From an uncultured bacterium (lineage in GTDB: Bacteria > Patescibacteriota > Gracilibacteria > Absconditabacterales > Absconditicoccaceae), in the NCBI GenBank assembly GCA_903904875.1, contig CAIVEC010000001.1:10147-74146 (forward strand): 64,000 nt of DNA. The letters run 5' to 3'. This document shows positions 288-54,716 of the stretch, one piece after another. Position 1 is the first letter of the stretch. Each line of letters opens with the position of its first letter. Both the position numbers and the translations under genes were made by a program. A model generated the notes under the pieces. It saw only the letters and a program-made list of their open reading frames with translations. It searched no databases and was not told the origin of the DNA.

Positions 288-309
288 CTTTTATTCATTG
301 TGTATAGCC

Positions 310-1020
310 GTGAAGATTGCGTGAATACAACAGTCGACGATGATAGATTACCCAGGCAAGATCGCTTGCGTGGTCTTTACCCAGTGATGCAATTTCCGCT
401 GTAATTTTTGCCATAACCCTGAATGTGTCTTGCCGGAAAAAATGATGCTGTTCCAGAACGACTTGATCCCTGAAGACGCGTTCTTCAATTTCCTGAGAGC
501 GAGAAAATGACTTTTGGATTGAGTGAGTATCTGTTGATGAGAACCTACCTTACAACAAGACTTATACGACTTTGCCAAGAGGTGCAAAGAGATGTGATTC
601 TTCGTCAAGTTGGATACGAACGGGAGGGATTATCAACTCGTCAAAAGGATGATCCAGGATAAGATTCTTGATTATGTCGCGGTAGACTTGAAACACTCCA
701 TGCATTGTTACGGTGATGCGGTAGGACTTGAACAGCCCACAGAATTCTATCTGAGTTTCCAGAAATTATTGCAGATATTATTGGAAAGCAAAATAGATTA
801 CGAATATAGGACTACGGTCGCTAAGTGACTTCATACGCTTGATGATGTAGAGAATATGGCGGTCTATATCAGAGGTGCGAAGCACTATTATCTCCAGAAT
901 TATATCGGAGGGAATACGCTGGATCCTGATTTCTGATGAACGCCGTTCAGCGAAGAGGAATTGGAAGAATTCAAAAAAATAGCTGAACGTTATGTCCAGC
1001 ATTGCGAGATCAGAATGTAA
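310..1020 (+). CDS. nrdG: anaerobic ribonucleoside-triphosphate reductase activating protein (radical SAM)
   Basis: VKIAGIQQSTMIDYPGKIACVVFTQ(TGA=G)CNFRCNFCHNPE radical-SAM CxxxCxxC motif. GTG start at 310 (ATG alternative at 340), TAA at 1018-1020, 711 nt. Confidence 0.8.
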
Positions 1021-22371: not shown

Positions 22372-23916
22372 ATGAAAAAAAACTTTACTAAATTTTTGTT
22401 CATCGCAGTAGCGGTGATCGGCATGTTTTTTGCCAAATCAAGTCAGGGACAAACAGCTTATGTAAGCTTGGATACACTTAGCAATGGAGATACTATCCAT
22501 TATTGTACTTCACAGTATACCCAGGTAGTCCTTTACAAACCAACGGCAGCATTAACAAATCCTCAATGGGATATTCAACAGCCTTCATATCATAATGTTT
22601 TTGCTGATTCTGTTATCTTAAACACCACAAACGCTGGGACAATCTGGTTTTCGTCTGATCAAACATCAACGATAGAATTAAATTTTTTTCTTGTAGGAGT
22701 ACCAAATTCTCCAGGATTAGCTGATATCAATGCCTGTGGAGATATCTACAGTTACCCGCTTGATGCATTGAATCATAATACCGGGTCTTTTTATACCTGG
22801 TCAACGGGAGCAACAACACAAAACATTACTGCTACAAGTCCCGGGACGTACTGGGTACATATTGATGATGGGTGCGGTACGATATCAGATACTGCTATCA
22901 TTACTGCAGATCATACCAATGACGCTAATCTTGGTCCTGATCAAACGATTTGTCTGTATGATACTATCACGTTGACCAGCGGTAATACCAACATCACTAC
23001 CTATGCATGGTCAACCAGTAGTTCTGCTTCGACTATTACTGTTTCGCAAGCAGGGAGCTATAGTATCACAACAACTGACAATTCTGGTTGTGTAAGTACT
23101 GATACAATGAATCTCATTATTATCGTTCCCTATGATCAGCAGCAAATCTGCATGGTAGAATATGACACTCTTGCGTCCGAGAATCGTATCAATTGGGATC
23201 AGCATCTTGGCGAAAGAATTGACAGTATTAATATCGAAAAACAGATATCACTTACTGAATGGGAAAGTATCGGAGTTGTACCCAATACAATAACTAATTT
23301 TTTGGATACCAATAGTACTCCGCAAACCAATAGCGATTCTTACCGGATTCTTGTAATAGATAGTTGTGGCAACAAATCATCAGCTTCTGATGCTCATAAG
23401 ACCATTACGCTTTTGACGAGCTACACTCCAGGAACTGGGGTTATGGGATTTAATTGGTCTCACTATCTAGTCAATGGCATACTCGTTGCACCGACCTATA
23501 CTATCTATGGTATAGATACCAGTGGAAGTACTCATGTGGTTGGCACGGTTCCGGGAAGCCAGAATTATTATAACTGGACCACCCCCGATTTGAGCTATAT
23601 CAAATTCTTTGTCGGATTTACGCTTAGTTGCGGAGCCAAAACAGATTATCTGGTACGCTCAAACTATACAGGCAACCCTGCAGGAATTGACGAATATTCT
23701 TTGACTGACCAAATTCATGTATATCCGACACTGACCAACGGTCCGATAACTATCATGACCGATCTCTTTATCAAGGATATCAAACTTTATAATACTTTGG
23801 GACAAGTACTCTTGGTCACCAAGGAGAAAAAAATTGATATTCCTTACCATGGACTTTACTTTTTACACATCAACACCGATAAAGGTGTGATGGTAACTAA
23901 AATTATGATCCAATAA
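22372..23916 (+). CDS. secreted repeat protein with Bacteroidota-type T9SS C-terminal sorting domain
   Basis: Signal peptide MKKNFTKFLFIAVAVIGMFFAKSSQG. 3 x Y.WSTGATT..ITV..GTY.V...D..GC..DT repeats. Two Fn3-like ...SCGNKS modules. CTD VYPTLTNGPITI...LYNTLGQVL...GLYFLHINTDKGVMVTKIMIQ. 514 codons with no TGA. Confidence 0.85.
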   Translation: MKKNFTKFLFIAVAVIGMFFAKSSQGQTAYVSLDTLSNGDTIHYCTSQYTQVVLYKPTAALTNPQWDIQQPSYHNVFADSVILNTTNAGTIWFSSDQTSTIELNFFLVGVPNSPGLADINACGDIYSYPLDALNHNTGSFYTWSTGATTQNITATSPGTYWVHIDDGCGTISDTAIITADHTNDANLGPDQTICLYDTITLTSGNTNITTYAWSTSSSASTITVSQAGSYSITTTDNSGCVSTDTMNLIIIVPYDQQQICMVEYDTLASENRINWDQHLGERIDSINIEKQISLTEWESIGVVPNTITNFLDTNSTPQTNSDSYRILVIDSCGNKSSASDAHKTITLLTSYTPGTGVMGFNWSHYLVNGILVAPTYTIYGIDTSGSTHVVGTVPGSQNYYNWTTPDLSYIKFFVGFTLSCGAKTDYLVRSNYTGNPAGIDEYSLTDQIHVYPTLTNGPITIMTDLFIKDIKLYNTLGQVLLVTKEKKIDIPYHGLYFLHINTDKGVMVTKIMIQ

Positions 23917-23993: not shown

Positions 23994-25703
23994 CTAAAAA
24001 CAAACGGTAGTATAAAAACTAATAGATCATCAAGCATATATTAAAAATGAGCCATCAATAGGTATTGCTGTATTGGTTGAATCACAGAAACAATACATAT
24101 CAGGGCGAGGGGGATGATTAGCAGCACGAACATAGAACATTGTTCATTCAGGATAACCAGTAGTTCAACATGGATCTCAAGCTTGTCGTCTTATTGCTTT
24201 AATACCACCTTGTACAGTAAGCATAGCATCTGGGTTAGTTATTCCGATACCGACTCATCATGTTAATACCGTCATTATATTACTATAACCAATAGAACCA
24301 CCTCAGTTTCATATTTCAAATAAAGAATTAGATAATCATACATTATGACTTCATATCGCCAATGAATTATCTCAATTAGCGGTTGTATAAGATCCCATTA
24401 CAGTAGACATAGCTCAACTAGCAAGGGATCTATTTCCCATTGCTGTGGAATAATCTCAGTTAGCTTGTGTCTGATGTCCTATTGCTGTAGAAGCATATCA
24501 ACTAGCTATTGTACTATATCCCATCGCTGCAGAATAGGTTCAGTTAGCAGCATTGACACTATTTCACGCTATAAATGTCCCTACAACCTGCAAGTTTGCT
24601 GTTGGACCAGTCGTTCCGATTCCTACATTGCCATTTACATATAAATCTCCCGCACCTGAACCAGTTAAAATATTATATCATATACCGACATTTCATCACA
24701 TTGATACCGTCATTATATTATTTCTATTAGAACTATTAAGTCAATTTCATATTTCAAATACAGAATCAGATAATCATATATTATATTTTCATATCGCTAG
24801 TGAATAATTTCAATTAGCATGTGTTCCTTGTCCCATGGCAGTTGAATAATCTCAACTAGCTATGGTATTAGCTCCCATAGCAGTAGAAGTATTTCAATTA
24901 GCTGTTGTAGTAGCTCCCATAGCAGTTGAATAATCTCAATTAGCTGTTGTACTAGCTCCCATAGCAGTTGAATAATCTCAATTAGCATAAGTTAAATTTC
25001 CCATCGCTGTAGAAGTATTTCAATTAGCTGTTGTACTATGTCCCATAGCAGTCGATCGACTTCAAATAGCTCGTGTTAAATTTCCCATCGCTGTAGAGAC
25101 CACTCAAATAGCATGTGTTCCATATCCCATTGCAGTTGAAATCGTTCAGGTAGCATAAGTTCAATTTCCCATCGCAGTAGAGTAATTTCCACTAGCAGTT
25201 GTTCATTGTCCCATCGCTATAGAATTGGTTCAAATAGCACTATTACTAGTACTTCATGCTATAAATGTTCCTGAAACTTGTAAGTTTGCTGATGGACTAG
25301 CTATTCCGATACCGACTTTACCAGAATTATAGTAAGCGATTCAAGCTCCTCATGTAGACCATATGGATTCACCACCTGCAGTACCTCCTGTAGGCCATGT
25401 AGTTCTACACTTTGTAAGAGATGTATCATCAGAAAGACATATAGTAGAACCGGTTACTGTACCAGAAAAGTATGCGTCTCCATTTGCTCCATTGAAAAAG
25501 ATTCCTGTATCGGAACCAACATCGCCGTCTATAGTCATAAGAACATCTCTTATAACCATTGCAGCATTTTTTTGTGCAGGCACAACCTCAAATGCCTTTG
25601 CCATAAAGAGTATGCAAGACATTCAGAGGAAAAACAGCGTAGCTCATTTGATGAAGCTCATACCGCCTTTCTTTGACTGTAAGTTTTTGCTTGTGAAGCT
25701 CAT
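23994..25703 (-). CDS. surface fibre protein with YadA-head / Hep_Hag-type 14-residue repeats
   Basis: Whole gene translated codon by codon (569 aa, TAG stop). N-terminal signal-anchor MSFIKGATLFFLGMSCILF. Two blocks of STAMG..T.A.G.. repeats, the A.G Gly mostly TGA. NVGIGTTGPTANLQV spacers. Cys-containing C-terminus. Confidence 0.8.
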
Positions 25704-25847: not shown

Positions 25848-26651
25848 TTAATTTACCCGTAACTCTCCTGGACTACCTCATTGTCCGACCTTCCAAACTC
25901 CTCCTGTTAATCATTCAATTACTAAATTATCACCAGAAACAATGATTCTTCGTGGAGTTGTTCATCAGGTAAGATAGAATCCTGAGTTGCTTTGTACTGC
26001 ACCACTAACATCTAACGCATATTCTGGTGAAGTTATTCATCCGATACCGACATTTAATCAAACATTGTAAATATTTGTACTATTGGTGATCCAGGAAGCT
26101 CAATCCCAAAATGGCGTTGCTCACAATCATATTCATGCTTGTAAAAATCCTGTAGCTCCTGTATCTCCTGTCGCTCATGTTGCTCCTGTATCTCCTGTCG
26201 CTCATGTTGTTCACATTGCTCATGTCGCTCACGTTACTCATATTGGTCATATCGCTCACGTTACTCATATTGGTCATATAGCTCATGTTGGTCCACTCAG
26301 TGCAAATCCACTAATGAAGTTGTATACTGCACCACTTGTAGATGCTATTAATTTTCCACTTGCATTAGTTCCAAGCACAGCAAAGTTTAGTAAACTGTCC
26401 ATCGTTACATCGCCTTTGAACCATGCGGTTCCGCTAGCACCGTTTAAAAAAACTCCTGTAGCAGAAGTAGAATTTCCGTCTAGAGTAAGAATAAGATTTC
26501 CTACAAGTATCGTCGCATTCTTTTGTGCAGTTTTAATTTCAAACGCTTTTACCATAAAGAGTATGCAGGACATTCAGAGGAAAAACAGCGTAGCTCATTT
26601 GATGAAGCTCATGCCTTTTCTTGATTGTAAGTTTTTGCTTGTAAAGCTCAT
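25848..26651 (-). CDS. collagen-like (G-X-Y) surface fibre protein
   Basis: Same N-terminal cassette as 23994..25703. About 16 uninterrupted GXY triplets (GAIGPIGVTGAIGPIGVTGATGAMGTTGATGDTG...) at about 26100-26285, about 10 of the Gly encoded by TGA. 804 nt. Confidence 0.8.
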
Positions 26652-30120: not shown

Positions 30121-32688
30121 ATGGATCTCAAAGAGATAAGCAAAAAACGACAGAAAAAACGGAAAGAAACAGATCTCTACAAAGTCAGAGAAGATATTTC
30201 TAAACCAAAATTTTATATTCTGGCTATGTTCCCCTATCCGTCCGGTGCATGATTACATGTAGGACATCCGAAGGGATATATTGCTACCGACACGTTGGCG
30301 AGAAAAAAAATGCTTGAAGGATATAATGTACTTCATCCGATGGGATTCGATACCTTCTGATTATGAACGGAAAATTATGCGATAGAGCATAAGATGAAAC
30401 CACAGGATGTAGCGAAAAAAAATATTGCAACATATATGAAGCAACTTGAAATGTTTGGTACTACCTATGATCGAAGTAGAGCCGTCAATACGGCAGATCC
30501 GAAATATTTCAAGCGGACGCAACGAATATTCTTACAGATGTACAATCATTATTATGATGAAAAGTTGAAAAAAGCGATGCCGATCACTGATCCAAGTAAA
30601 CAAGAACGTTTAGCATATGTAGATTACAAGCCGATAAACCGATGTCCATCATGTATGACCGGATTAGCGAATGAAGATCTCGATGACGGAAAATGCGAAA
30701 GATGCGGAAGTGTCGTTGAACAGAGACCGATGAAGCAACGAGTATTGAGGATTACGAAATATGCCGAAAGATTGTTGGAATGATTGGATGTCTTGAAACG
30801 GGAAGAGTCCATGAAAGATTTGGAAAGGAACTGGATCGGGAAATCAGAATGAACAGATTTCGATATGCAGGTCGATGGAACGGATGAAAAATTCAGCGTG
30901 TATACGACAAGGATAGATACGGTTTTCTGAATGTCATTCGTTGCTATCGCACCAGAGCACCCATTAGTGGATAAGATAACCACGAAAGAATATAAAAAAG
31001 AAGTTGAAAAATACAAAGACGCAGCGAAGCACAAAACCCAGTTGGAAAGGACAGAATTACAGAAAGAGAAGACAGGAGTCTTCTGTGGAGCCTACGCGAT
31101 CAATCCGTTCAATGGCGAAAAAGTGAAAATATTCGTCGCCGATTATGTCTTGGCAAATTACGGAACTGGAGTCGTGATGGCCGTGCCCGCGCATGATGAA
31201 AGGGATTTCGAATTCTATAAAAATTACAATAAGAACTGAATAGATATTATATGTGTAAATCAGAGTGAATATGGTGTTGAACCTAGAAATTGAGTTTCTT
31301 TTAATATTGAATACGAATCATTTAAAAAATATTGTAATCAATTAGATAAGTTACCACCTTTCTTATCTGCCAATTGAGATAATCAAAAATTAGTAAATTC
31401 ATGAAAGTTTGATTGACTAACCTTATCAGAAGCAAGAGAAGAAATGAACAAGCGATTAAAAAAAGAATGAATCTGAGGTAGTAAAGTGAATTATAAGATG
31501 CAGGATCGGGTATTCAGCAGACAGAGATATCGAGGCGAACCATTTCCGATTGTACGGACCGAAGATGGAGAAATTGTCGCACTTGAGGAAAAAGATTTAC
31601 CGGTGGAATTACCTGATGTAGATAATTATCAACCGACGGGAACAGAAGAATGACCGCTCGCAAACATCACCGATTGGGTCAATGTTACGTTGCCCGATGG
31701 TAGGAAAGCAAAACGTGAAACGAATACGATGCCAGGACGGGCAGGCAGTTCGCGATACCGGCTCAGATATATGGATGTGAATAATGAGAAGGCATTAGTA
31801 GGAAAAGATAAGGAAAAATACCGAGGGAATGTCGACGTCTATGTCGGAGGTGCGGAGCACGTTACCAGACATATGATCTACGCGAGATTCTGGCAGAAAT
31901 TTTTGTACGATATCGGTGTGGTTACAAAACAGGAACCGTTCGAAGAATATCATTATGTAGGGCTCATCATGGGAGAAGACGGCAGGAAAATGTCCAAAAG
32001 ACGAAAAAATGTTGTCAGTCCAGATGATATTATTAACGAGTTCTGAACTGATGCCTTGAGGACCTATGAGATGTTCATGGGACCGTTCGATCAGCCGATT
32101 GCATGGAGTACGAACGGACTGAAATGAATCAAAAAATTCTTAGATAAAGTTGTTGCGTTGAAAGACAAAATAGGGAGCAAGGAGCAAGGAGCAGGGAGCA
32201 AAGAACCTGAAACCTGAAACATGGAACCTGCAACCCATATAATAGTAAACCAGACAATAAAAAAAGTTTGAGAAGATATCGATGTATTCAGATTCAATAC
32301 CGGGGTTTCACAGCTCATGATCCTCGTCAATCACCTGACCGAATGTAAAACCATCAATAAGAAAACATTCGAAGATTTGGTTGTCTTGATATCGCCTTTC
32401 GCTCCGCATTTAGCTGAGGAATTACGGGAGTGATTAGGTAATGAATACTCCATATTCACGAAAGCGAAATGGCCGAGTTATGATAAAAAATATCTCGTAG
32501 CTGATACCGTAACCATCGCTGTACAAGTGAACGGCAAGGTGAGAGGAACGATTTCTATCGATAAGAACGCTGAAGAAAGTGAGGTCATGAAGCTCGCGAA
32601 ATCAGATGAAAAAATAAAAACACGGATTACGGGCGAACCGAAAAAAGTGATCTACGTCAAAGGAAAAATTTTAAATGTTGTAATATAG
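30121..32688 (+). CDS. leuS: leucine--tRNA ligase
   Basis: KK(CGA)QKK(CGG)K = [12 protein letters not shown](TGA)LHVGHP, D(CGG)VFSRQRY(CGA)GEP = [20 protein letters not shown]. 2568 nt, TAG stop. Confidence 0.95.
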
Positions 32689-33457: not shown

Positions 33458-33458
33458 T

Positions 33459-33543
33459 GGAAGGTTGGCAGAGTGGTCTAATGCGCACCGTTGGAAACGG
33501 TGTGTGCCGCAAGGTACCGGGGGTTCGAATCCCCCATCTTCCG
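33459..33543 (+). tRNA. tRNA-Ser (anticodon GGA), type II with long variable arm
   Basis: Acceptor GGAAGGT/ATCTTCC plus discriminator G. Anticodon stem CACCG/CGGTG with loop TTGGAAA. Variable arm. T-arm GGGGG-TTCGAAT-CCCCC. No encoded CCA. Confidence 0.9.
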
Positions 33544-33550
33544 AAGGATT

Positions 33551-33632: not shown

Positions 33633-35090
33633 CTACTCATCGAGTTTTTCGATAGCGAATTGGCGTGCCATATACGCTTCCGGACTCTTTTGTGTAAAAA
33701 TATCCAAGGCAAACATATAGGCATCCTTGAGATTCAGGAATGTCGCATTGGGAACAAGTGAAGGCATTCTCAGTGAGCTCCATATATCTTCCGGATGAGT
33801 CTCTGCTGAATTACAATACGACAACACCGGCCATGCTGTTCTGGCGGAAAGTGTTGGTCCGAGGCCGTTGATCATGCCGACTATGGCAATGATCACTGCG
33901 CCTTCCGGATACTTTGCATGCAATTCATTGAGTTTTTTGGCAGCTTTCAAAGGCATTTTGTGTCCTGAAATCACCACATCTTCAATGATTATGCTTGCAG
34001 GAATAGCTTTGAGGAATTCTTCATCTGCGAAACATTCAAGCTTATCATCAGGAGATCCTCTCCATAAGATGATCGGCTGTTTCGGGATGTAAAATTGGTT
34101 AACAAGCTGTGCTACGCGCATATAATTTTCCTGCACCTGAGCTAATGGATGACCATCACGGAAAGTCTGTTTTGATAATTCTTTCCAGTCGGCTGTCCTT
34201 AGTCTCCAGGAGTCATTGTCGATGACGTCAGCAACAACCAAGTTTCCAGCGGTATCGATTCCGAATTCGATTTTAAAATCGATTAAGCGGTAGCCCAATG
34301 TATTCCATGCTCCTTCCAACACCAGGAAAGTTTTGCGGGTGATTTCTTCGATTTTTACGAGCATATCAGGATTGGTAATAGTACTGCCGTCCATTGTTGT
34401 CAATGGAGTGATTTCCCAGGTCGGTTTCTTTGGATGTCGTAAAGTCCACTTTGAAATATCTTTCGGATTTTCGATCCAGGGATCATCAATGATTTTAATT
34501 GCCTCTTCAACAAGGTCTTCGATGGAAAGTTCCATGAGTTTTGTAATTTCCGGAAGCTTTTTTCCCACCAGTTTCTCGTTGATCTCTTTTAAAGATTTTT
34601 TAACATTCAGATATTTAATCAATTCTTCCTTATCCTTGGGAAGATAATCACGGAGATCCATGTCTCCTAATTTTCCTCCTTTGGTTTTCAGAAAGAGTTC
34701 AAATACCAGCTTATGGAAGCGATCTGGATTTCCTGGTTTGGCTAAATGAGGCATTCTTTCAAGGTATGATCCCGTAGCAAATCGACGGATAATTACTTCT
34801 AAGGGTATCATAGTACAATTTTTTGCCAAAATTTCTGTATCAGACAACTGTTCGATATACGCCGTACGGATACCTGCCTGTTCCAGCAATTCGAATATTC
34901 TGCTGGTTGTCTGAGTTGCACAAATGGCTTTTTTCTCCAGAGAACGGGTTTTTGAGGCATCATTGTCTGCCGTAGTTTCATTAGTGCTTTCCATGATAAC
35001 TAGATCATGGCGCTGGGCAACTGCCCAGATCTTTTTTGTTTTCCCTGATGTTAAGGGATTTTTGCCAAATTTCTTGAATTTTTTCTGCAT
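33633..35090 (-). CDS. bifunctional SAICAR synthetase / class II AIR carboxylase (PurC-PurE fusion, PAICS-like)
   Basis: 485-aa intact ORF. IPLEVIIRRFATGSY, DFKIEFG, ADVIDNDSWRL (PurC part). ISGHKMP, GMINGLGPTLS, IWSSLRMPS (PurE part). No TGA. Confidence 0.85.
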   Translation of the reverse strand: MQKKFKKFGKNPLTSGKTKKIWAVAQRHDLVIMESTNETTADNDASKTRSLEKKAICATQTTSRIFELLEQAGIRTAYIEQLSDTEILAKNCTMIPLEVIIRRFATGSYLERMPHLAKPGNPDRFHKLVFELFLKTKGGKLGDMDLRDYLPKDKEELIKYLNVKKSLKEINEKLVGKKLPEITKLMELSIEDLVEEAIKIIDDPWIENPKDISKWTLRHPKKPTWEITPLTTMDGSTITNPDMLVKIEEITRKTFLVLEGAWNTLGYRLIDFKIEFGIDTAGNLVVADVIDNDSWRLRTADWKELSKQTFRDGHPLAQVQENYMRVAQLVNQFYIPKQPIILWRGSPDDKLECFADEEFLKAIPASIIIEDVVISGHKMPLKAAKKLNELHAKYPEGAVIIAIVGMINGLGPTLSARTAWPVLSYCNSAETHPEDIWSSLRMPSLVPNATFLNLKDAYMFALDIFTQKSPEAYMARQFAIEKLDE

Positions 35091-35314
35091 AAGTTTTCTT
35101 TTTTTTTAATGATTATTAACGACTTTTTTTAATTTCACCAAGTATAGAAAAATGGCGGCTCTCGGCCTTTCGAATTTTTTATTTTCATATGTATATTGGT
35201 TTTAGTGATTTTTTTGTTTACAATGTTTGGATAATCTATCTATATACCATCAAATGTCAAGTCATCTAATTTTTACATAAAGAAAAACGTATCCTGAAAG
35301 GCAGAACACGTTTA

Positions 35315-36100
35315 TCAATGATTTCTCAGATCTAGTTTGATACCAAGATGAAGTGAGATCTTTTGGGTTTCGAAATTAAATTCCGGTCCGCAGATAAAGG
35401 TAAATCCATGATAGAAATCTTTGGAAGATCCAACTGAAATATGATCGTACCCATGTTTATTCACTTCCACTTCAGCACAGATACCTGCTTGCTGGAGATG
35501 ATATTCTTGGCGATAATAGTATTTCAACCAGGTATTTCCGATAGGTTTTACCTTAAAATACGTATCAATCAGCCAAGAAGGCGTAATTAATCCAAAGAAC
35601 ATAAAGGAACCCTTGCGATACTTGATCGTATGATCGCCTCTTGCGCTTTGAGGAAGGTGAAGATAACTTATATACATTTCTCCATTCAGATACCTGTATA
35701 CTTCTTCCAACGGATATTGTTGAGCATATGGATCCGCTTCCACGATCAATGCAAATCCCATACGAAGCTTGTTCCAATATCAGAACGTATTCGCTGCTTT
35801 TTTATCAAATGGAGCAGCCATAAGATCAAAATCTATACCATAGATCCTGGCACCGATCATAGAATTACGCTTGTACAATGAATGAAAATTGTATACCGTT
35901 TTTTCCAGATTTGTACGATCGTAGCACTTCCGCCAGTAGATTGTTTGATCAATTGTGGACTGATCCAAGAAACTTGGATTATTGAAATTCTGATCCATAG
36001 AGACAACCGAACCTTCTACGAGCGTAGAAGACCGTACCAATATTTGCGCATTACTTTGTAATGCAGCAAACATCACAAGTAATATCACAAATTTTTTCAT
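35315..36100 (-). CDS. secreted hypothetical protein, possibly beta-barrel (Bacteroidota-like signal peptide)
   Basis: Two ORF-track pieces joined by one TGA at 35780. MKKFVILLVMFAALQSNAQ. Alternating aromatic/hydrophilic pattern. 786 nt. Confidence 0.55.
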
Positions 36101-39871: not shown

Positions 39872-42754
39872 ATGAAGAAAAAATTAGCTTCTTGGAAATC
39901 AGGTTGAAAATATCTTGTGGTATTTTTGTTGGGAGTGCTTTTCACTTTTGCAATCACCAATGGATTCACACTGATCCACTCTACAGTAGAAAACGCTATC
40001 CAGTTTATCAGGCAGACGAAGTTCACTGATTCCGGTTTGGATACAGGTACCGTATTCGTGGATATCAATGCAGGATCCGGATATATCAACATCAATACCT
40101 GATCGCTCGGTAATTGAACATGATGGAATTCAAGGTTTTTGGCATTGGATGCTTTGGGAAATATAACCTATGCAGCAGAACAAGATCCGATTTTTTCATC
40201 AAGTCCTGTAAGCGGAATCACACTCACCAATATAAATACTTGGAACGCAGCATATAATCGGGTACAGACCAATTCATGAGACGCATTATATTTTATCAAC
40301 AATTCATGAGATTGGGTTAATATGAGTATGACTGGCAATTGGAATAGTGGATACAATCGAATAATTACTTCATGAGATATTTTACGAGATCGATATACCA
40401 TGAGTGGATTTTCCTCACTCAGTTGTTCTACAGGAGAAATTATAAAATACAATGGGTCTACTTGGATATGTAGTAGTGATTTGGTAGGATGAAGTGGATG
40501 AAGCAACTATTACACTACCGGACTCTATTTTGATAGCGGAACTAATCTACTGACCCTCTATGTCAGCGGTTATGGACCTGTCACAGGATATATCATTTTC
40601 TCCGGTATGGATAACTGGAATAGTGCGTATAATCGAATTAATAATTCAGGAACCTTTTTACGAAGCTGGTATACTACCACAGGAATTTATATAAATACTT
40701 TAGCGACTACAACCGGGCTTAATTGTTCAACATGAGAAATCGCAAAATACAATGGGTCTACTTGGGTATGTAGTAGTGATTTAATAGGAAGTTGAGGTGG
40801 ATGAAGCAACTTTTACACTACCGGACTAGATTTTGATAGCGGAACTAATCTACTGACTCTCTATGTCAGCGGCTATGGACCTGTCACAGGATTCATCCTT
40901 TTCTCCGGTATGGATAACTGGAATAGCGCATACAATCGAATTAATAATTCAGGAACCTTTTTACGGAACCGATATACTAATTCATGAACCTTTTTACGAA
41001 ACTGGTATACCACTACAGGTATATACATCAATACGTTAGCAACAACTACTGGTCTTACTTGTTCTGCATGAGAACTTATAAAATACAATGGATCTGCTTG
41101 GGTATGTAGCGGGGATTTGGTAGGAAGTTGAGGAATTAGTTATTGGACTGCAATAGGAGACTGAACATATACATGAATACAATATCTCGGATGAGATATC
41201 GTCACTACATGATTTATTACCAAATGAATATGAGTGAGTGCTCTATGAATATATGCTACAGCGATGGGATATCAAGCAACTGCTAATTGATCTTATTCTA
41301 TCGCTATGGGATATCAGACAACTGCTAATTGATCTTATTCTACAGCTATGGGAAATACTACACAAGCTAATTGAGATTATTCTACAGCGATGGGATGGTG
41401 AACAATTGCTAGTGGAAATTATTCTACAGCGATGGGATATAATACAAAAGCTTATATAATGGGTGCTACATCTTTATGATGGAATACAACGGCTAGTTGA
41501 AGCTTTTCTACTTCAATGGGACAAAATACACAAGCAATATGACCAAGTTCTACCGCTATGGGACAAGGTTCAATGGCTATTTGAGATTCATCTACGGCGA
41601 TGGGATATCAGACACAAGCTAATTGAGATTATTCTACAGTGATGGGAAGGGACACAATTGCTAGTTGACAATATTCTACTGCGATGGGACGTCAGACAAT
41701 TGCTAATGGACTAAATTCTACGGCGATTGGATTGTGTACACATGCTAATTGAATTGATTCTACAGCAATGGGAAATATAACTACAGCAAACTGAGATGCT
41801 GCTACAGCAATGGGAACTCAGACAATTGCTAATGGACTAAATTCTACAGCAATGGGTGCAACGACACATGCTAATTGAACTGATTCTACGGCGATGGGAA
41901 ACAATACAATTGCTAGTGGATATATTTCTACTGCGATGGGAAGTTGGACAATTGCTAATTGAAATTCATCTACAGCGATGGGATCTTATACACAAGCCAT
42001 TTGAGATTATTCTACTGCTATGGGAGATGAAACAACTGCTAATGGAATTGGTTCTATTGCTATGGGATATCAAACAACCGCTGATGGAACTGGGTCTTTT
42101 GCTATTGGAAATGGAACAACCGCTAATTGAAATGGTTCTATTGCAATGTGATATTATACACATGCTAATTGAGATAGTTCTACTGCCATGGGCGATCATA
42201 CAATTGCTAATGGATATGCCTGTACGGTAATGGGGGCTTCAAATGAAATAACGACATGATCAGATTATTCCAGCATATTAGGATGACAATGAAATAAAAT
42301 ATATTGAGTATTAAATGCTTTTATCGGTGGAGGATGAAGTAATATCATAAGTTGAAGTTCCTCAATGTATTCAGTTATTCCTTGATGATCATTTAATCTT
42401 ATAGAAAATGCACAACATAGTTTTGCTTGAGGGAAAAATGCACAAGCATTGCATGATTATACTTTTGTACGAAATGGAGTTGGAGGTAGTACGGTGTTTC
42501 AATCAGAGCATTCAAATAGTTTTATTATTAATGCACCTGGAGGAGTAGGTATCGGAACTAATAATCCACAAGGAGATCTTCATGTTGCAGGAAGCGGGGT
42601 CGTGGTTTTTGAGCCACAAGACACTAATCCTCAATGAGTATGAACAGGATGTACCGTCACGTGATCAGTAGTATATGCTAAGACATCCAATAATCTTTGT
42701 TATTGTAACTGATCATGACGAACAAAATTAGTTGGACTTAATTGCGCATTCTAA
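39872..42754 (+). CDS. 960-aa surface fibre: tandem ~100-aa repeats, Hep_Hag/YadA-head repeats and beta-helix-like tail
   Basis: Checked line by line. Signal-anchor N-terminus. 2.5 x ~300-nt tandem units (40495-41130). About 25 STAMG..T.ANG.. repeats with TGA at the ANG Gly. Ends LCYCNGSG(CGA)TKLVGLNCAF. Confidence 0.85.
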
Positions 42755-43098: not shown

Positions 43099-44640
43099 AT
43101 GAAAACGCAGAAATTTTTCTTTTTTTTGTTGGTTTTCAGCATAAGCTGGATATCAACTAGAGCAACTATTCATCATGTCTATCTGGATAATACCTATAAT
43201 ACAGAATGGCATACGTTTTGCGGGGGAGTGAATGATACTGTCATCCTTCACAAACCAATAATTGCCATGAACAATATTACTTGGGTTACTCCGTTAGGTC
43301 TAATGATTTTTGCTCAGGACACCGTGATTGTGCCGTACAATAATCAAGGGGATTGGTATTTCAGTTCCACCGAAGTAGGAAAGGATGTTTATGTGTATTT
43401 CATTTCTACTCCGCCAGTTCAGCCGGCTTGCATGGCTCATGATACGAGCTTTTGTACAGCAAGTATCAATTGGACCTTGAATGCACAAAACACCAGTACA
43501 TTTTCTACCTATCTCTGGGACAATGGTGCAACTACTAAAAACAGAATAGTCACTACGGTCGGCACCTATTGGGTACAAATCACTAATGCCTGTGGTCAGA
43601 GAACTGATACGCTTCACATCACTCAGTCCAACCCTAATGCTCCTCATCTTGGAGCTGATCAGAGTTTTTGCTGGGGAAGTGGTACGATTCTCAATCCAGG
43701 AAGTACTAATGTAACTTCGTATCAATGGTCAACTGGTGCTATAACACCAACAATCACCGTAGATACGACTGGTACGTACTGGGTATATGTAATTGATGGC
43801 AATGGCTGCAGCGGCAGAGACACGATTCAAGTCACCACTTTGATTCCTATCGGTGAAGAAGAATGTTATGTAGGATTTGATACGCTCACATGGAAAAATG
43901 ATGTTAATTGGACGGTAAATTTACCCGGTAATGCTGACTCCGTACGGATCTACAAAGAGACTTCACTGAATGTGTGGACGCTTATCGGAACTGTTTCCAA
44001 GACCGTTGATCATTTCCTGGATATGGCATCTCTACCACAACAACAGAGCTATAGTTACAAAATAGCTCTAGTGGATACTTGCGGTAATGAGTCTAATCTC
44101 TCATCATTCCATACTACAATCTCACTATTGAGTGCTTACGACCAACCCAGTAACACGTATGGGTTTACATGGTCTGCATATGATGGGATTATAGTAAATG
44201 ATTATTATCTGTATGGTATCTATGGTAACGGAACTGTTACCCAAGTGGGCAGTGTACCTGGTAATCAGTTTATGTTCAATTACCTTAATCCTGATCCTGG
44301 CTTTGTAAAATATTTCGTGGGTTTTGAAACTCCGGATTGTGATGCAAAGACCAATATTGTGGTAAAAAGCAATTGGGTACTGAGAGATTCTCTACTTACC
44401 AGTGTTCATGAAGTGGGAATCATTCCGTTCGCTGTTTATCCTAATCCAGCCAGCTCACAATTGACGATCAATATCGGAGTTGAAGACTTCCAAGTGAATG
44501 TGCTTACCACGATCGGACAGGTAGTCTTGTCTGAACACAATGTGAAAACATTGGACGTAAGTAGTTTATCCAAAGGTCTGTACATTATGCAGGTAACTGC
44601 TAACGGTACAACCAGCGAAAAAAAGATTATTATCAATTAA
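43099..44640 (+). CDS. secreted repeat protein with T9SS C-terminal sorting domain (paralog of 22372..23916)
   Basis: Signal peptide and the same architecture as the paralog. CTD VYPNPASSQLTINI...GLYIMQVTANGTTSEKKIIIN. 513 codons with no TGA. Confidence 0.85.
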   Translation: MKTQKFFFFLLVFSISWISTRATIHHVYLDNTYNTEWHTFCGGVNDTVILHKPIIAMNNITWVTPLGLMIFAQDTVIVPYNNQGDWYFSSTEVGKDVYVYFISTPPVQPACMAHDTSFCTASINWTLNAQNTSTFSTYLWDNGATTKNRIVTTVGTYWVQITNACGQRTDTLHITQSNPNAPHLGADQSFCWGSGTILNPGSTNVTSYQWSTGAITPTITVDTTGTYWVYVIDGNGCSGRDTIQVTTLIPIGEEECYVGFDTLTWKNDVNWTVNLPGNADSVRIYKETSLNVWTLIGTVSKTVDHFLDMASLPQQQSYSYKIALVDTCGNESNLSSFHTTISLLSAYDQPSNTYGFTWSAYDGIIVNDYYLYGIYGNGTVTQVGSVPGNQFMFNYLNPDPGFVKYFVGFETPDCDAKTNIVVKSNWVLRDSLLTSVHEVGIIPFAVYPNPASSQLTINIGVEDFQVNVLTTIGQVVLSEHNVKTLDVSSLSKGLYIMQVTANGTTSEKKIIIN

Positions 44641-51551: not shown

Positions 51552-51652
51552 TATAATTTTAAGTTTTAAGTGCTAAGTTTTAAATAAAATTTTTCCTATA
51601 TTTAACACTTAACATTTAGCACTTAGCATTGAATTTATTTAATTAATTTTTC
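51552..51652. repeat. core-less long hairpin of the same arm type
   Basis: ttttaagttttaagtgctaagttttaaat ... atttaacacttaacatttagcacttagcattgaa. Overlaps the last codons of rlmN. Confidence 0.6.
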
Positions 51653-52732
51653 ATATCCTAACTGACCGCAAGCTCATTTCATTTTTCTTCACAGGCTATC
51701 CCTGACGGTCACGGTAAGCCCTCCGTCCTCCAATATCTTCTTGAATGCTTGTATCGATGCGGCGTCGCTTTCTACGAGATCAATAGCAGGATTTTTGTTG
51801 TAAGGAATCAAGTTCACATGCGCTAATTTTTTTCTGAGCAAGGCAACGAGTTGGTGTGCAAGCTCCGGTTTGTCGGTCACATTTTTGATCATGATGTATT
51901 CGTAGAAAATCCTATTATCTGAAGCATTGACGTATTCACTTAATGCTTTATTAAGTTCATCGAGCGGATATGCTTTAGCGATCGGCATAAGTTTGTCGCG
52001 TAAGGTCTGATTGGGTGCGTGAAGTGAGATAGCTAATTTTACGGGAATCTCGTCTTTGACGAGTTGTTTGATTCATGGAATAATTCACGCCGTGGAAATC
52101 GTGATGTGTCTTCTTGAAAGTGAGAATCCCGCTTCCTGTCTGAGCATAATCTCGATAGCTTTTTTGACGTTATCATAGTTCAGCAACGGTTCTCCCATGC
52201 CCATGAAGACGACATTCCTTACGGAATATAAACTTCCGTCTTCCTGTTTTCCGAATTTCTGTTTGATGTAGTTGTTGGCGAATAATATCTGCGAAACCAT
52301 TTCGTCTCGGGTAAGGTTCCTTTTGAAGCCGAGTTTTCCGGTTACACAAAATAAACAACCCATCGGGCATCCGACCTGGGAAGAGATGCAGAGGGTGATT
52401 CTGTTCAATTTCTCTTCATCGTTCTTGTTGTATTTTTCGTCCTGCCGGTGAAAGATGATGACCGCTTCGATCATGTAGCCGTCGTGTGTCTGGAATCAGA
52501 TTTTGGTAGTGGTTTTGTCTTCCAAAAGTTTATCTACCTTCAAGGTGACGACAGAAAAATGCTTGTCCAGGTCTTCTCTCAGATCTTTGGAAAGTGTCGT
52601 CATCTGCGAAAAATCTATATTCTGGTTATTGAATATCTCTTGGTAGATCTGTTTGATCCTGAACGGCTGGAGCTTGCGCTCTTTGGCGAACGCTTGGAGC
52701 TTTCCGGCGTCTAATATTGATGTTTTGATCAT
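51635..52732 (-). CDS. rlmN: 23S rRNA/tRNA (adenine-C2)-methyltransferase RlmN (radical SAM)
   Basis: FRIKQIYQ, SSQVGCPMGCLFCVTG, GMGEPLLNY, ACGQL. Three fragments in one frame. 1098 nt. Confidence 0.9.
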
Positions 52733-52768
52733 AGTACGATATAAGGGTAAATATATTTTCAAGCGATA

Positions 52769-53413
52769 CTAATCGATTTTTCTTGCGACAAAACCCATCC
52801 ATGTTTTATTATACGGATCGGCAAAGATTCTTTTATTGATGATTTCAAATCCATGATTCTCGAGTGTCTCCTGAAGTTCTTGTTCAGTCCGATGTTTTCT
52901 GAATCTAATCATTCTTTTATTATAATCATGTTTCGTCTCTAGCCCTTCCCTGGACACCTCCGCTTTTGTAGTGCTCAAGAAGATAAGACCATTTGGTTTC
53001 AATATCTTTTTCACTTTTTTGAATACTTCCTGAATCTTGTCTTTGGGGAAGAGATGGATGAATGCACTCATATACACCGAATCAAATGTCTCTTGGAATT
53101 CATGCTGCAAAAAATCCGCCTCAATGATATCTGACATAGGGTTTCTTGTTTTCGCATACGTTGTCATTTCATGAGAAAGCTCAACACCAGTACACAAAAA
53201 CCCCTTATCATTGAAACACTTAACGGCTATCCCGACAGCGCAACCTATGTCCAAAACACTGTTTCCAGGCTGTAAGTATGTTGCGCAAATCTCTATAGCT
53301 TCTACCGTCATCGGGATTAAACTTCCGACACGAGACTCATACTCATCAGCAAGCGTATCATATGCTTGTTTGTGAATACTATCATCAGATTTATGTTTGA
53401 GGTTTCTTTTCAT
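52769..53413 (-). CDS. class I SAM-dependent methyltransferase
   Basis: VLDIGCAVGI motif I. 214 codons with no TGA. Confidence 0.8.
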   Translation of the reverse strand: MKRNLKHKSDDSIHKQAYDTLADEYESRVGSLIPMTVEAIEICATYLQPGNSVLDIGCAVGIAVKCFNDKGFLCTGVELSHEMTTYAKTRNPMSDIIEADFLQHEFQETFDSVYMSAFIHLFPKDKIQEVFKKVKKILKPNGLIFLSTTKAEVSREGLETKHDYNKRMIRFRKHRTEQELQETLENHGFEIINKRIFADPYNKTWMGFVARKID

Positions 53414-53430: not shown

Positions 53431-54582
53431 TTAAATGGTATTTTTCTCCGACCTGGTATCATCATTATTTTTCAGCAGCGTCTTTTTGTAGAATCGGCAT
53501 CTTTCTCAGCCGTTGAAAATCATGGACTTCTTCCGTGTTCACGATACGTCATCAGTGGTGAACTTATCATACGAGGTGATGATTCATCAATGCAATTTCG
53601 GATGATGAGCGAATAATTCAGTGATGGTGTAATAGAGCTTCTCTAGGTCATAGGTGTTCATCCTCAATCCGTACGGCGGATTGGAGACCATCGTTCATAC
53701 GAGTTCCGGACCGGAGATATAGTCAGCGATAGCTTTGGTTTCGAAGGTGATATATTTTTCCATTCAGGCATGTTTCGCATTCTCTTTGGCGATGCTGATC
53801 ATGGTCGGATCGATATCAGAAGCGATGATGGTATGTTCTTTTGTTAGCATCATTTTAGCTTTTGCCGCCTCAAGTTCTGCAGTGAATAATTTTTGATCGT
53901 ATCGTTTGAACTGCTGGAACGCGAACGAGCGGAACATTCCCGGTGCGATATTCTTCGCAAGCAATGCTGCTTCGATAACGATGGTTCCACTTCCGCAGAA
54001 AAAATCATAGAGCGGTTCGCTGAATTTCCAGCCGGATAAAAGCAATAATCATGCCGCTAACGCCTCGTTGATCGGCGCTTCTCCCGTGGCTTTTTTGTAG
54101 CCTCTCTTGTGGAGCGATTCTCAGGTAGTATTAAGCAAAACGGAACACATATCGTGTTCTATGTAGACAAGAATTTCTATCGGTTGTAATTTTTCATCTT
54201 CGATGACGAGTCATTCTTTGCCATTAAGAATTTTTTTTGTGATGGATTTTTTGACTATTTTTTGGATGGCTGGTACGCTGGTAAGGAGTGATTGTTTGGT
54301 AATAGCGGTGACGATGATGGGATTGTTCTGAATGTAGATTGCTCGGTCGATCGTTGAAATCATGTCGAAAAGTTTGTCGAAATCAGTGGTTTGGTATTGT
54401 TTCAATTCAAGGAATACTTTGTTGCCTACCCTGCTCCGGAGATTCATTTTCGCGATTGCAGGAAGCTCTCCCTGGAAACGGACCAGCGTCGGTCATGAAC
54501 CGAGCATTTTGTATCCAGCGATTTCTATCTCTTTCTTGAGGATGGACTCTAGCCCTGCAGCGCAGGAAATGGCAAAATTCAT
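53431..54582 (-). CDS. THUMP-domain RNA methyltransferase (RlmL/COG0116-type)
   Basis: MNFAISCAAGLESILKKEI..., DFFCGSGTIVIEAA, SNPPYG. NL(CGG)SR fits the family W. 1152 nt. Confidence 0.85.
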
Positions 54583-54589
54583 GAAACAC

Positions 54590-54716
54590 AATGAATAATG
54601 AAAGATGAAAAATGAATAATGTCGGATTTTATCGTGTATAAACTATTGTAGTTTACAATAGCTGATAAAAAACAATACAATCATTATTCATTATTAATTA
54701 TTAATTTTTCATTAAA
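54590..54716. repeat. intergenic hairpin element copy 7 (core reversed)
   Basis: Arms aatgaataatgaaagatgaaaaatgaataatg / cattattcattattaattattaat. Core tcggattttatcgtgtataaactattgtagtttacaatagctgat. Confidence 0.75.

What the first reader, a model, noticed from the sequence alone, without database searches (positions are those of the whole stretch)
33633..35090. Animal-type PAICS-like PurC-PurE fusion, TGA-free, in a lineage that normally lacks purine synthesis
The 485-aa protein has SAICAR synthetase at the N-terminus and class II AIR carboxylase at the C-terminus. This is the domain order of metazoan PAICS. Several motifs match what I recall of PAICS: RRFATGS(Y/F), KIEFG.D, ADVIDNDSWRL, S(G/A)HK.P, NGLGP, (I/V)WSSLR(M/L)PS. 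CPR bacteria are generally described as lacking de novo purine biosynthesis, and no other pur gene is in this window. The gene has no TGA and only two CGA codons, one at the second Arg of RR-FATGS. The next gene (35315..36100) has a Bacteroidota-like signal peptide and only one TGA.
Basis: partly seen in the sequence, partly recalled or inferred. Interest (0 to 1): 0.7.

Follow-up and report, generated by a model that had tools for sequence, protein, structure and literature searches.

The report
Standard-code purine gene in recoded genome
A two-enzyme purine-synthesis gene sits stably in the chromosome of a parasitic SR1 bacterium that reads three codons differently from other life, yet the gene has stayed written in the ordinary genetic code through long evolution, which suggests its working protein is not made by the bacterium's usual decoding.

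Summary
Window 33633-35090 (minus strand) encodes a 485-aa SAICAR synthetase + class II AIR carboxylase fusion. It has no TGA and two CGA codons.

"Animal-type" is misleading. The fusion occurs in at least 495 bacterial species representatives, mostly Patescibacteria. Animal PAICS is only about 37% identical.

The window genome is Absconditabacteria-like and reads TGA as Gly and CGA/CGG as Trp. The gene is not a recent import:
- Orthologues carrying a clade-specific ~50-aa insertion sit in conserved synteny in every TGA-recoded context I could read.
- dS matches that of neighbouring genes.
- dN/dS is 0.08-0.18.

Despite saturated synonymous turnover, every orthologue follows the standard code:
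- 0 of 154 conserved Gly codons are TGA. In independent lineage pairs, native genes show 87 GGN<>TGA switches and PAICS shows 0 (p=6e-16).
- All 84 Trp codons are TGG.
- CGA/CGG sit only at Arg or variable positions, including catalytic Arg. In flanking genes they exchange only with TGG.

The gene therefore evolves under the standard code inside a recoded genome.

Best reading, inferred and not shown: its functional product is decoded by standard-code (host-type) translation. Rivals are recurrent transfer, a shuttling element, or codon-quality selection.

No other pur gene is nearby.

The parts
33633..35090 (-). PurC-PurE(II) (bacterial PAICS-type) coding sequence, 485 codons plus a TAG stop. 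It has no TGA, its 10 Trp are all TGG, and it has 2 CGA codons.
34092..35090 (-). SAICAR synthetase (PurC) domain, aa 1-333. The ATP site G16-K17-T18-K19 and the CAIR/SAICAR site D293-S294-W295-R296, K307, R311 match the human PAICS active-site residues.
34491..34655 (-). Helical insertion, roughly aa 146-200, inside the PurC domain. It is found in the TGA-recoded clade and in P0016, whose contig context was not read. It is absent from other Patescibacteria, Bacteroidota and animals.
   Evidence: alignment; model (helices 146-201, block pLDDT 90-95)
33636..34088 (-). Class II AIR carboxylase (PurE) domain, aa 335-485, with S375-G376-H377-K378 and G405-M406-I407-N408-G409-L410-G411-P412.
34782..34784 (-). 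CGA codon 103, the second Arg of RRFATGS. This position is Arg in all 26 aligned homologues and Cys in L087/L097. The genome's own code would read it as Trp.
34437..34439 (-). CGA codon 218, in a variable column that reads R, K or A in orthologues.
33870..33872 (-). ATC codon 407. It gives Ile where 25 of 25 aligned homologues have Ser (human Ser332, an AIRc active-site residue). The substitution is specific to the window.
35091..35270 (-). Upstream region conserved among the recoded lineages. It contains TTGGTG (35136-35141) and TAATAAT (35112-35118), which resemble a promoter. Further upstream lie an A-rich block and a short GC hairpin with a T-run. Function unknown.
   Evidence: no Rfam hit; no consensus fold
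33458..33544 (+). tRNA-Ser(GGA). It marks the variable, island-like stretch that holds the gene in the window, L001, L006 and L127.
35312..36100 (-). Neighbouring gene for a 262-aa secreted protein of unknown family. It is TGA-free in L001. In the window it has one internal TGA (35780-35782) where L001 has CGA, and a TGA-TAA tandem stop.

Best explanation
Shown:
- The gene encodes a bacterial PAICS-type bifunctional enzyme. A class II PurE domain should convert AIR + CO2 to CAIR, and a PurC domain should convert CAIR + Asp + ATP to SAICAR.
- It is a long-standing, vertically inherited chromosomal gene of a subclade of TGA-recoded Absconditabacteria-like bacteria.
- Its coding sequence is under purifying selection according to the standard genetic code, not the code used by every native gene around it (TGA=Gly, CGA/CGG=Trp). 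It never acquires TGA for Gly or CGA/CGG for Trp. It freely uses CGA/CGG at Arg positions, including substrate-binding ones.

Inferred, not shown:
- The functional protein must be produced with CGA/CGG read as Arg.
- The most economical way to get that is translation by standard-code machinery, in or derived from the host cell these epibiotic parasites feed on.
- In that setting the gene would act like a phage auxiliary metabolic gene, boosting purine supply.
For: Identity of the protein:
- Pfam finds both domains.
- The best PDB sequence and fold matches are human and Bombyx PAICS. The AF2 model has pLDDT 89.7 and Foldseek E=6e-31.
- Residues equivalent to the human active sites are conserved.

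Code of the genome:
- Reading TGA as sense raises ORF coverage from 45% to 94%.
- 14 of 19 CGA/CGG codons in LeuRS align with Trp of T. thermophilus LeuRS.
- Between window and L001 LeuRS, CGR exchanges with TGG and never with Arg codons.
- This matches the published Absconditabacteria code (PMC8629427).

Vertical inheritance:
- The block LeuRS-adh_short-(GlmS)-tRNA-Ser-PAICS is shared by the window, L001, L006 and L127.
- The block SpoU-PAICS-Dus is shared by L004 and L126.
- Window-L001 dS is 0.25 for PAICS, against 0.27-0.33 for three neighbours and 0.69 for LeuRS.
- dN/dS is 0.08-0.18, and deep pairs have dS of 1.7 or more.
- GC3 tracks each host genome closely in window and L004, less closely in L006 and L007.

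Code discordance:
- 20 Gly columns across 9 lineages give 154 GGN codons and 0 TGA, with extensive third-base turnover. All 84 Trp codons are TGG.
- In six independent lineage pairs, changed Gly columns in native genes split 87 GGN<>TGA to 65 GGN<>GGN. In PAICS they split 0 to 52. Fisher p=6e-16.
- Pooled pairwise counts: native CGR-TGG 48 and CGR-Arg 0; PAICS CGR-Arg 214 and CGR-TGG 0.
- In one syntenic block (L004 vs L126), flanking genes show 7 CGA<>TGG and 0 CGA<>Arg. PAICS shows 6 CGA<>Arg and 0 CGA<>TGG.
- CGR sits at R296 (human R215) in L004, L088 and L006, and at R311 (human R232) in L087.
- CGR makes up 16% of PAICS Arg codons in recoded genomes and 21% in code-11 relatives, so it is not being purged.
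- All 11 full-length or near-full-length PAICS orthologues counted are TGA-free, against 7 of 102 other genes.
- Orthologues retrieved with a Gly-free DNA pattern were also all TGA-free, so this is not an ascertainment artefact.

Plausibility:
- Stand-alone PurC occurs in viral contigs.
- Other TGA-free genes in the window carry Bacteroidota-type T9SS sorting domains.
- The window-L001 pair of the 513-aa T9SS-CTD gene (43099-44640) has dN/dS 0.14.
Against: - No transfer of DNA or RNA from any CPR bacterium to a host, and no import of host translation components, has ever been shown. Nothing in the window encodes an obvious delivery device.
- The host is unknown.
- The promoter-like signals upstream are generic sigma-70-like and could serve the bacterium itself.
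- In the window's own copy only two CGA codons exist and neither is at a proven catalytic residue, so this copy could still work if read with the resident code.
- The window copy also carries S407I at an otherwise invariant active-site Ser.
- Code-11 Patescibacteria carry the same orphan fusion, so a role inside the bacterium is plausible in general.
- tRNA sets of the complete genomes could not be inspected. A residual Arg-tRNA reading CGA cannot be excluded.
- Counts pooled over lineage pairs are not all independent. The independent-pair test is the one to trust.
Confidence: 0.42

Rival explanations
1. Selection inside the bacterium. The gene is translated by the bacterium's own ribosomes. 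It avoids TGA(Gly) and CGR(Trp) because those decodings are slow or error-prone. The CGA/CGG codons at Arg positions are either read ambiguously or give tolerated Arg-to-Trp changes.
For: - Some native, probably well-expressed genes have a lower TGA share: EF-P 2/16, TyrRS 4/36, S1 in L004 1/33.
- The window copy has only two CGA codons, at non-catalytic positions.
- Column 103 is Cys in L087/L097, so it is not absolutely fixed.
- U34 wobble ambiguity in this code is discussed in PMC8629427.
Against: - DnaK keeps 8 TGA among 44 Gly codons, so high expression does not remove TGA.
- PAICS is TGA-free in all 11 counted orthologues and in the further partial ones, with 0 switches against 87 in native genes.
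- CGR sits at the CAIR-binding Arg (human R215) in three lineages. L004 has 7 CGR at Arg columns, yet dN/dS stays near 0.1.
- CGR never exchanges with TGG in PAICS, as it would if it meant Trp there.
- CGR usage is not reduced relative to code-11 relatives.
Confidence: 0.15
2. Mobile, code-agnostic island. The gene is cargo of an integrative element or phage that shuttles between recoded SR1-like bacteria and standard-code bacteria. Selection in the standard-code hosts keeps it standard-coded.
For: - The gene lies beside tRNA-Ser(GGA) in four lineages.
- Variable TGA-free genes sit between the tRNA and the gene in L006. In L088, which has no tRNA in the stretch held, TGA-free genes sit next to PAICS.
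- The gene's location differs in L092 and L007.
- Code-11-compatible phages of Absconditabacteria and Gracilibacteria are published (PMC10746230).
Against: - No integrase or phage gene was seen next to it.
- The published prophages in these bacteria are all recoded.
- Every insertion-bearing orthologue whose flanks could be read, 12 distinct loci, is in a recoded chromosomal context.
- dS equals that of neighbours, and synteny persists while flanking genes have diverged to 38-72% identity.
- IMG/VR holds only stand-alone PurC, not the fusion.
Confidence: 0.1
3. Recent or repeated horizontal acquisition from standard-code donors, not yet adapted to the new code.
For: - The gene is TGA-free with TGG-only Trp.
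- The closest relatives outside the clade include genuine Bacteroidota.
- The window holds other TGA-free genes that look like recent imports. One example is the methyltransferase at 52769-53413, which is absent from the syntenic L092.
Against: - The recoded clade is monophyletic, with its own insertion, in a rough NJ tree.
- Synteny is conserved.
- dS is 1.7 or more between lineages and equal to neighbours in the close pair.
- Composition has adapted to each host genome.
- No donor-context copy was found.
Confidence: 0.05

Closest known systems
Metazoan PAICS (human 2H31/6YB8, Bombyx 4JA0)
   Same: - Same domain order: SAICAR synthetase then class II AIR carboxylase.
- Best PDB sequence and fold match.
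- Shared active-site residues: GKTK, DSWR, K/R pair, S-x-H-K, NGLGP.
   Different: - Only ~37% identical, 24-27% in the Foldseek alignment.
- A ~50-aa helical insertion in the PurC domain.
- Human Arg331 is Met here, and Ser332 is Ile in the window copy.
- Bacterial, and much closer to hundreds of Patescibacteria proteins (44-73% identity).
PurC-PurE(II) fusions of Patescibacteria and other bacteria (annotated 'AIR carboxylase family protein' or 'phosphoribosylaminoimidazolesuccinocarboxamide synthase')
   Same: - Same family and architecture.
- Stand-alone gene without a pur operon in the two Patescibacteria loci examined.
   Different: The recoded clade has the extra insertion and lives in genomes with three reassigned codons without using any of them in the new sense.
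Treponema denticola class II PurE (3RG8/3RGG)
   Same: Class II signature (S-A/G-H-K, SSLRMPS) and fold.
   Different: The Treponema enzyme is a single-domain protein. Its sequence match is weak (E=0.04).
Code-11-compatible (TGA-free) phages of Absconditabacteria and Gracilibacteria (Liu et al. 2023, PMC10746230), and recoded phages with standard-coded early genes
   Same: Coding sequence kept free of the reassigned stop codon while associated with a recoded host. The idea that a sequence must work in a standard-code cell applies to both.
   Different: Here it is a chromosomal, syntenic, vertically inherited cellular gene. It is not merely compatible with both codes but conflicts with the resident code at CGA/CGG codons.
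Phage auxiliary metabolic genes for purine synthesis (stand-alone purC in viral contigs)
   Same: A purine-pathway step carried by a parasite that depends on host nucleotides.
   Different: Those genes are viral and single-domain (about 31-33% identity to the query for most, higher in a few short segments). Delivery to the host is part of infection. No delivery route is known for this bacterium.

Membership tests
PAICS-type bifunctional PurC-PurE(II) | N-terminal SAICAR synthetase domain | tested here: met
   Pfam PF01259 3e-41, 142 bits against a cut-off of 20. PDB PurC hits down to 2e-24.
PAICS-type bifunctional PurC-PurE(II) | C-terminal AIR carboxylase/PurE domain on the same chain | tested here: met
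   Pfam PF00731 45.7 bits against a cut-off of 30. The full-length Foldseek match to human PAICS 6yb8 has E=6e-31.
PAICS-type bifunctional PurC-PurE(II) | SAICAR synthetase ATP and CAIR/SAICAR site residues (human G16-K19, D212-S213-W214-R215, K228, R232) | tested here: met
   G16 K17 T18 K19, D293 S294 W295 R296, K307 and R311 are invariant in the 26-sequence alignment. The residue list comes from PMC9376930.
Class II PurE (AIR carboxylase) | S-A/G-H-K loop (Lys, not the Arg of class I) and the S-N-G-L-G-type 70s loop | tested here: met
   SGHK at 375-378 and NGLGP at 408-412. Ranking of the C-domain alone in the PDB: animal PAICS 1.7e-10, T. denticola class II 0.04, class I 0.08. The class I consensus is recalled from the literature, not tested.
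Class II PurE (AIR carboxylase) | Active-site Ser equivalent to human Ser332 | tested here: not met
   The window has Ile407 where 25 of 25 aligned homologues have Ser. The 92%-identical P0001 has Ser.
Class II PurE (AIR carboxylase) | Direct carboxylation of AIR with CO2, with no PurK needed | not testable with these tools
   Needs an enzyme assay or complementation of an E. coli purK mutant.
De novo purine pathway member | Co-occurrence with the other pur genes | tested here: inconclusive
   None in the 64-kb window. None within +-10 kb in the related recoded loci that carry gene annotation, nor in two Patescibacteria genomes. Whole genomes could not be searched.
Absconditabacteria genetic code (UGA=Gly, CGA/CGG=Trp) | Reassigned codons used in the new sense | tested here: not met
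   Met for native genes. Not met for this gene: 0 TGA, 0 CGR at Trp columns, CGR at Arg columns.
Recently transferred, unadapted gene | No conserved synteny, lower divergence than neighbours, foreign composition | tested here: not met
   Synteny is conserved. dS equals that of neighbours. GC3 tracks the host genome.
Code-agnostic phage or prophage gene | Located on a phage or prophage and compatible with both codes | tested here: not met
   The context is chromosomal with no phage genes. CGA/CGG at Arg columns conflict with the resident code. The fusion is absent from IMG/VR.

The most novel reading that the evidence does not exclude
Absconditabacteria keep a small set of chromosomal genes written in the standard code because those genes are translated by the host's decoding system. 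This could happen through nucleic acid passed into the prey cell, or through host translation components taken up during feeding. The set would include this PAICS-type gene and, in this window, secreted proteins with Bacteroidota-type T9SS sorting signals. The genetic-code mismatch would then be a natural label showing in which cell a parasite gene works. This gene would be a cellular counterpart of a phage auxiliary metabolic gene that raises host purine output.
Probability: 0.25. Interest if true: 0.97.

Novelty: new variant of a known kind. Interest (0 to 1): 0.82.

Why it matters
The enzyme itself is ordinary. The way it is encoded is not.

As far as I know, a vertically inherited cellular gene that stays under purifying selection in a code different from that of its own genome has not been described. 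The papers I searched and read did not mention one.

If it holds up, it bears on three open questions:
- Why SR1 and Gracilibacteria changed their code, and whether the change isolates them genetically.
- How CPR parasites obtain nucleotides from hosts.
- Whether they manipulate hosts with expressed genes.

It also offers a simple, genome-wide computational handle. Per-gene code inference could pick out genes that function outside the normal decoding context. The result is directly testable by proteomics at the CGA/CGG codons.

Tried and rejected
- Exact look-up of the window protein: not on record.
- First literature search on Patescibacteria and purine genes was swamped by the word 'pure'. 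Searches for CPR + phosphoribosylaminoimidazole and for PAICS + class II PurE + fusion gave nothing on bacterial fusions.
Sequences had to be pasted after code-25 translation.
- A small Codetta-like tally against the code-11 loci in hand had too few shared homologues to decide CGR meaning outside the window. Codon-pair comparisons between syntenic recoded loci replaced it.
- L073 (52% identity, partial) turned out not to be TGA=Gly recoded and was dropped.
- The window-L001 comparison alone has little power. About 1.4 GGN>TGA switches would be expected.
- Five of 12 metagenome pattern hits were chance matches.
- IMG/VR holds only stand-alone PurC.
- Rfam finds nothing upstream of the gene. RNAalifold gives no consensus fold for the conserved upstream block.
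- Cluster look-up gave no useful organism names.
- The ENA contigs of the closest strain (P0126) have no DNA on file.
- CGT/CGC richness of the gene first looked like a foreign signature. It is partly a family trait, also seen in code-11 genomes, and I do not rely on it.
- Expression-level codon bias was rejected because DnaK keeps TGA.
Full report
**Observation.** The ORF at 33633-35090 lies on the minus strand, runs ATG to TAG, and encodes 485 aa. Pfam finds SAICAR_synt (3e-41) at the N-terminus and AIRC (6e-12) at the C-terminus, both above their curated cut-offs. The gene has no in-frame TGA: all 21 Gly codons are GGN. It has exactly two CGA codons, at codon 103 (34782-34784, the second Arg of RRFATGS) and codon 218 (34437-34439).

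**Genetic code of the window.** Reading TGA as sense raises long-ORF coverage from 45% to 94%. LeuRS alone has 19 in-frame TGA codons. TGA makes up 29% of Gly codons overall.

The genome also reassigns CGA and CGG:
- 14 of the 19 CGA/CGG codons in LeuRS align with Trp of T. thermophilus LeuRS.
- Between the window and its close relative L001, CGA/CGG in LeuRS exchange with TGG and never with Arg codons.
- TspO gives a strong Pfam hit when CGR is translated as Trp.

This is the code that Shulgina and Eddy predicted for Absconditabacteria (UGA=Gly, CGA/CGG=Trp). The high CGA/CGG usage resembles their "advanced" assembly (PMC8629427). The window therefore comes from an SR1/Absconditabacteria-like bacterium. 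Genomes of that group are reported to lack nucleotide biosynthesis almost completely (PMC8080830).

**What the protein is.**
- The best PDB sequence matches are Bombyx (1.9e-48) and human (4e-47) PAICS.
- The C-terminal domain alone ranks animal PAICS first, then T. denticola class II PurE, then class I enzymes.
- An AlphaFold model built on a 26-sequence alignment has mean pLDDT 89.7. Its best full-length Foldseek match is human PAICS (E=6e-31).
- Residues equivalent to the human ATP site (G16-K19), the CAIR/SAICAR site (D212-R215, K228, R232) and the AIRc site (S301-K304, G330-L335) are conserved. Two exceptions are Met for human Arg331 and, only in the window copy, Ile407 for the otherwise invariant Ser.
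- A ~50-aa helical insertion (aa ~146-200) is specific to the closest relatives.

The predicted chemistry is AIR to CAIR to SAICAR. Activity was not tested.

**"Animal-type" is not apt.** The protein search returned 1513 hits. Hundreds of full-length fusions from Patescibacteria are 44-49% identical. A scan of one genome per species found at least 495 species with the fusion. These include Patescibacteria, Xanthobacteraceae and Verrucomicrobiota, plus a clade in genuine Bacteroidota contexts. Animal PAICS is ~37% identical. In a rough NJ tree the recoded clade is monophyletic, sister to P0018 plus the Bacteroidota clade, and nested among Patescibacteria.

**No pur neighbours.** No other pur gene is in the window. 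None lies within 10 kb in the related loci that carry gene annotation, nor in two near-complete Patescibacteria genomes. Whole-genome inventories were not possible.

**Vertical inheritance.** Twelve distinct orthologue loci carry the insertion. They were found through protein hits, genome contigs and a Gly-free DNA pattern (DDPWIE[ND]P). All lie in TGA-recoded contexts. P0016 also carries the insertion, but its 2.2-kb contig was not read.
- The window, L001, L006 and L127 share LeuRS-adh_short-GlmS-tRNA-Ser-...-PAICS.
- L004 (UBA5124) and L126 share PseudoU synthase-...-SpoU-PAICS-Dus, while their flanking proteins have diverged to 38-72% identity.
- Between the window and L001, dS is 0.25 for PAICS against 0.27-0.33 for three neighbours. 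LeuRS is higher, at 0.69.
- Deeper pairs have dS of 1.7 or more. dN/dS is 0.08-0.18.
- GC3 and two-fold codon choice track each host genome closely in the window and L004. The gap is wider in L006 and L007.

This is a resident gene under purifying selection, not a recent import.

**The anomaly.** Synonymous turnover is saturated, yet the gene follows the standard code in every lineage:
- At 20 conserved Gly columns in 9 lineages there are 154 GGN codons (GGA 56, GGT 52, GGC 35, GGG 11) and no TGA. All 84 codons at 10 Trp columns are TGG.
- In six phylogenetically independent lineage pairs, Gly columns whose codon changed split 87 GGN<>TGA to 65 GGN<>GGN in native genes. In PAICS they split 0 to 52. 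Fisher p=6e-16. Native genes show 16 TGG<>CGR switches and PAICS shows none.
- Pooled over all pairs, CGR in native genes pairs with TGG 48 times and with Arg codons 0 times. In PAICS it pairs with Arg codons 214 times and with TGG 0 times.
- Within the single syntenic block L004/L126, flanking genes show 7 CGA<>TGG, in both directions, and 0 CGA<>Arg. PAICS shows 6 CGA<>Arg and 0 CGA<>TGG.
- CGR codons occupy invariant Arg columns. These include R296 (human R215, CAIR site) in L004, L088 and L006, and R311 (human R232) in L087. L004 has seven CGR at Arg columns.
- CGR makes up 16% of Arg codons in PAICS of recoded genomes and 21% in code-11 relatives, so it is not being purged.
- In a census of 113 genes with at least 12 Gly codons, 18 are TGA-free. 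Eleven of those are the PAICS orthologues.
- Stop codons are TAG or TAA in nine of nine orthologues.

**Mundane explanations.**
- Recent or repeated transfer conflicts with synteny, dS and adaptation to host composition.
- Expression-linked codon bias fails. DnaK keeps 8 TGA among 44 Gly codons and uses AGA for Arg. No such bias explains CGR at catalytic Arg positions.
- Tolerated Arg-to-Trp changes are implausible at the CAIR-binding Arg in three lineages with dN/dS near 0.1. CGR would also then exchange with TGG, and it never does.
- A shuttling island has some support. tRNA-Ser is adjacent, variable TGA-free genes lie nearby in L006 and L088, and code-11-compatible phages of these bacteria are published. 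However, no mobility genes, no standard-code context and no viral copy were found, and vertical signals are strong.
- Chimeric assembly is excluded by independent assemblies of the same loci.

**Explanation.** One assumption accounts for all three codon patterns: the functional product is decoded with the standard code. These bacteria are epibiotic parasites or predators that depend on host nucleotides. I therefore consider translation by host-type machinery the most economical reading. That machinery could act in the host after nucleic-acid transfer, or it could be host components taken up during feeding. The gene would then work like a phage purine AMG. Stand-alone PurC is present in viral contigs.

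Two observations in the window fit this reading but do not prove it:
- Two TGA-free, TGG-rich genes encode proteins with T9SS C-terminal sorting domains. The window-L001 pair of one of them, the 513-aa gene at 43099-44640, has dN/dS 0.14. T9SS is known only from the Bacteroidota lineage (established knowledge, not tested here).
- A TGA-free KAS III-like gene has CGA-CGA at the conserved RR of TGIKERR.

The mechanism is an inference. No delivery route is known, the host is unknown, and tRNA sets were not available. I give it 0.42. I give the rivals 0.15 (selection within the bacterium, or ambiguity), 0.10 (mobile element) and 0.05 (recent transfer). The rest is unassigned.

**Caveats for the window copy.** It has only two CGA codons, neither at a proven catalytic residue. 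It carries S407I in the carboxylase site. So this particular copy says less than the clade as a whole.

**Verdict.** The enzyme is a new member of a widespread bacterial PAICS-type family. Its persistent standard-code state inside a genome with three reassigned codons is robust. To my knowledge it is undescribed. It is directly testable.

Noticed in passing
window 1-64000 (e.g. LeuRS 30121-32688): The whole window uses three reassigned codons: TGA=Gly (29% of Gly codons) and CGA/CGG=Trp. CGA is at about 60 and CGG at about 46 per 10,000 codons, against about 68 for TGG. This is an advanced stage of the Absconditabacteria code.
   Followed up: yes
window 22372-23916 (+) and 43099-44640 (+): Two paralogous ~513-aa secreted proteins carry T9SS Por_Secre_tail sorting domains (52 bits and 23 bits). 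Both are TGA-free (35 and 36 GGN) and TGG-rich (9 and 15). The second has a 92%-identical TGA-free orthologue in L001 with dN/dS 0.14. A Bacteroidota-type secretion signal in a CPR genome is unexplained.
   Followed up: partly
window 54788-56200 (+): A TGA-free KAS III (FabH)-like gene. Its CGA-CGA codons 73-74 align with the conserved Arg-Arg of the FabH 'TGIKERR' motif, so it is a second gene read sensibly only with the standard code.
   Followed up: partly
window 52769-53413 (-): A TGA-free SAM methyltransferase sits between RlmN (51635-52762) and a THUMP-type methyltransferase (53431-54591). The syntenic locus L092 has those two genes adjacent without it, so this looks like a lineage-specific insertion.
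   Followed up: partly
window 35312-36100 (-): The 262-aa secreted neighbour of unknown family has an internal TGA (35780-35782) where L001 has CGA. A near-identical ENA strain (P0126) matches the Arg version of the protein. In the standard code this is a nonsense mutation. The gene ends in a TGA-TAA tandem stop. Only 24 homologues were found, one from a Bacteroidetes MAG.
   Followed up: partly
window 35091-35270 (-); loci L001, L127, L088, L128, L092, L087, L007: Sequence upstream of the gene is conserved across lineages whose synonymous sites are saturated. It has an A-rich block (GAAAACAAAAAAT), GCCGAGAACCACC with a short hairpin and T-run, then TTGGTG...TAATAAT. A short ORF is possible. 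No Rfam family and no consensus fold were found.
   Followed up: partly
window 33458-33544 (+); L001 11547-11633; L006 8241-8327; L127 3645-3731: tRNA-Ser(GGA) flanks a variable stretch that contains the PAICS gene. In L006 the stretch also holds two TGA-free 361/362-aa paralogues with no Pfam family. It resembles an island at a tRNA gene, but no integrase was seen.
   Followed up: partly
window 33870-33872 (-): Ile407 replaces a Ser that is invariant in 25 of 25 aligned homologues (human Ser332 of the carboxylase site). The 92%-identical relative keeps Ser.
   Followed up: partly
window 23994-25703 (-), 25848-26651 (-), 39872-42754 (+): Gly-rich repeat proteins, probably on the surface. The L001 orthologue of the largest has a weak YadA_head hit. 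TGA supplies 36-46% of their Gly codons, the opposite extreme from the TGA-free genes.
   Followed up: no
window 59736-~60600 (-), 298-1020 (+): Other genes possibly related to nucleotide metabolism: a DHO_dh-family (dihydroorotate dehydrogenase-like) gene, and a radical-SAM activase that I recognised by eye as NrdG-like (Pfam gives only Radical_SAM and Fer4_12). None belongs to the purine pathway.
   Followed up: partly
L123/L124 (P0020 contigs): A 430-aa version of the fusion without the insertion sits in genuine Bacteroidota contexts (DUF5106, BatA). In a rough NJ tree it is nested among Patescibacteria sequences, which suggests transfer between Patescibacteria and Bacteroidota.
   Followed up: partly
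L098-L122 (IMG/VR contigs): 25 viral contigs encode stand-alone PurC related to the N-terminal domain (most about 31-33% identical). None encodes the fusion.
   Followed up: no
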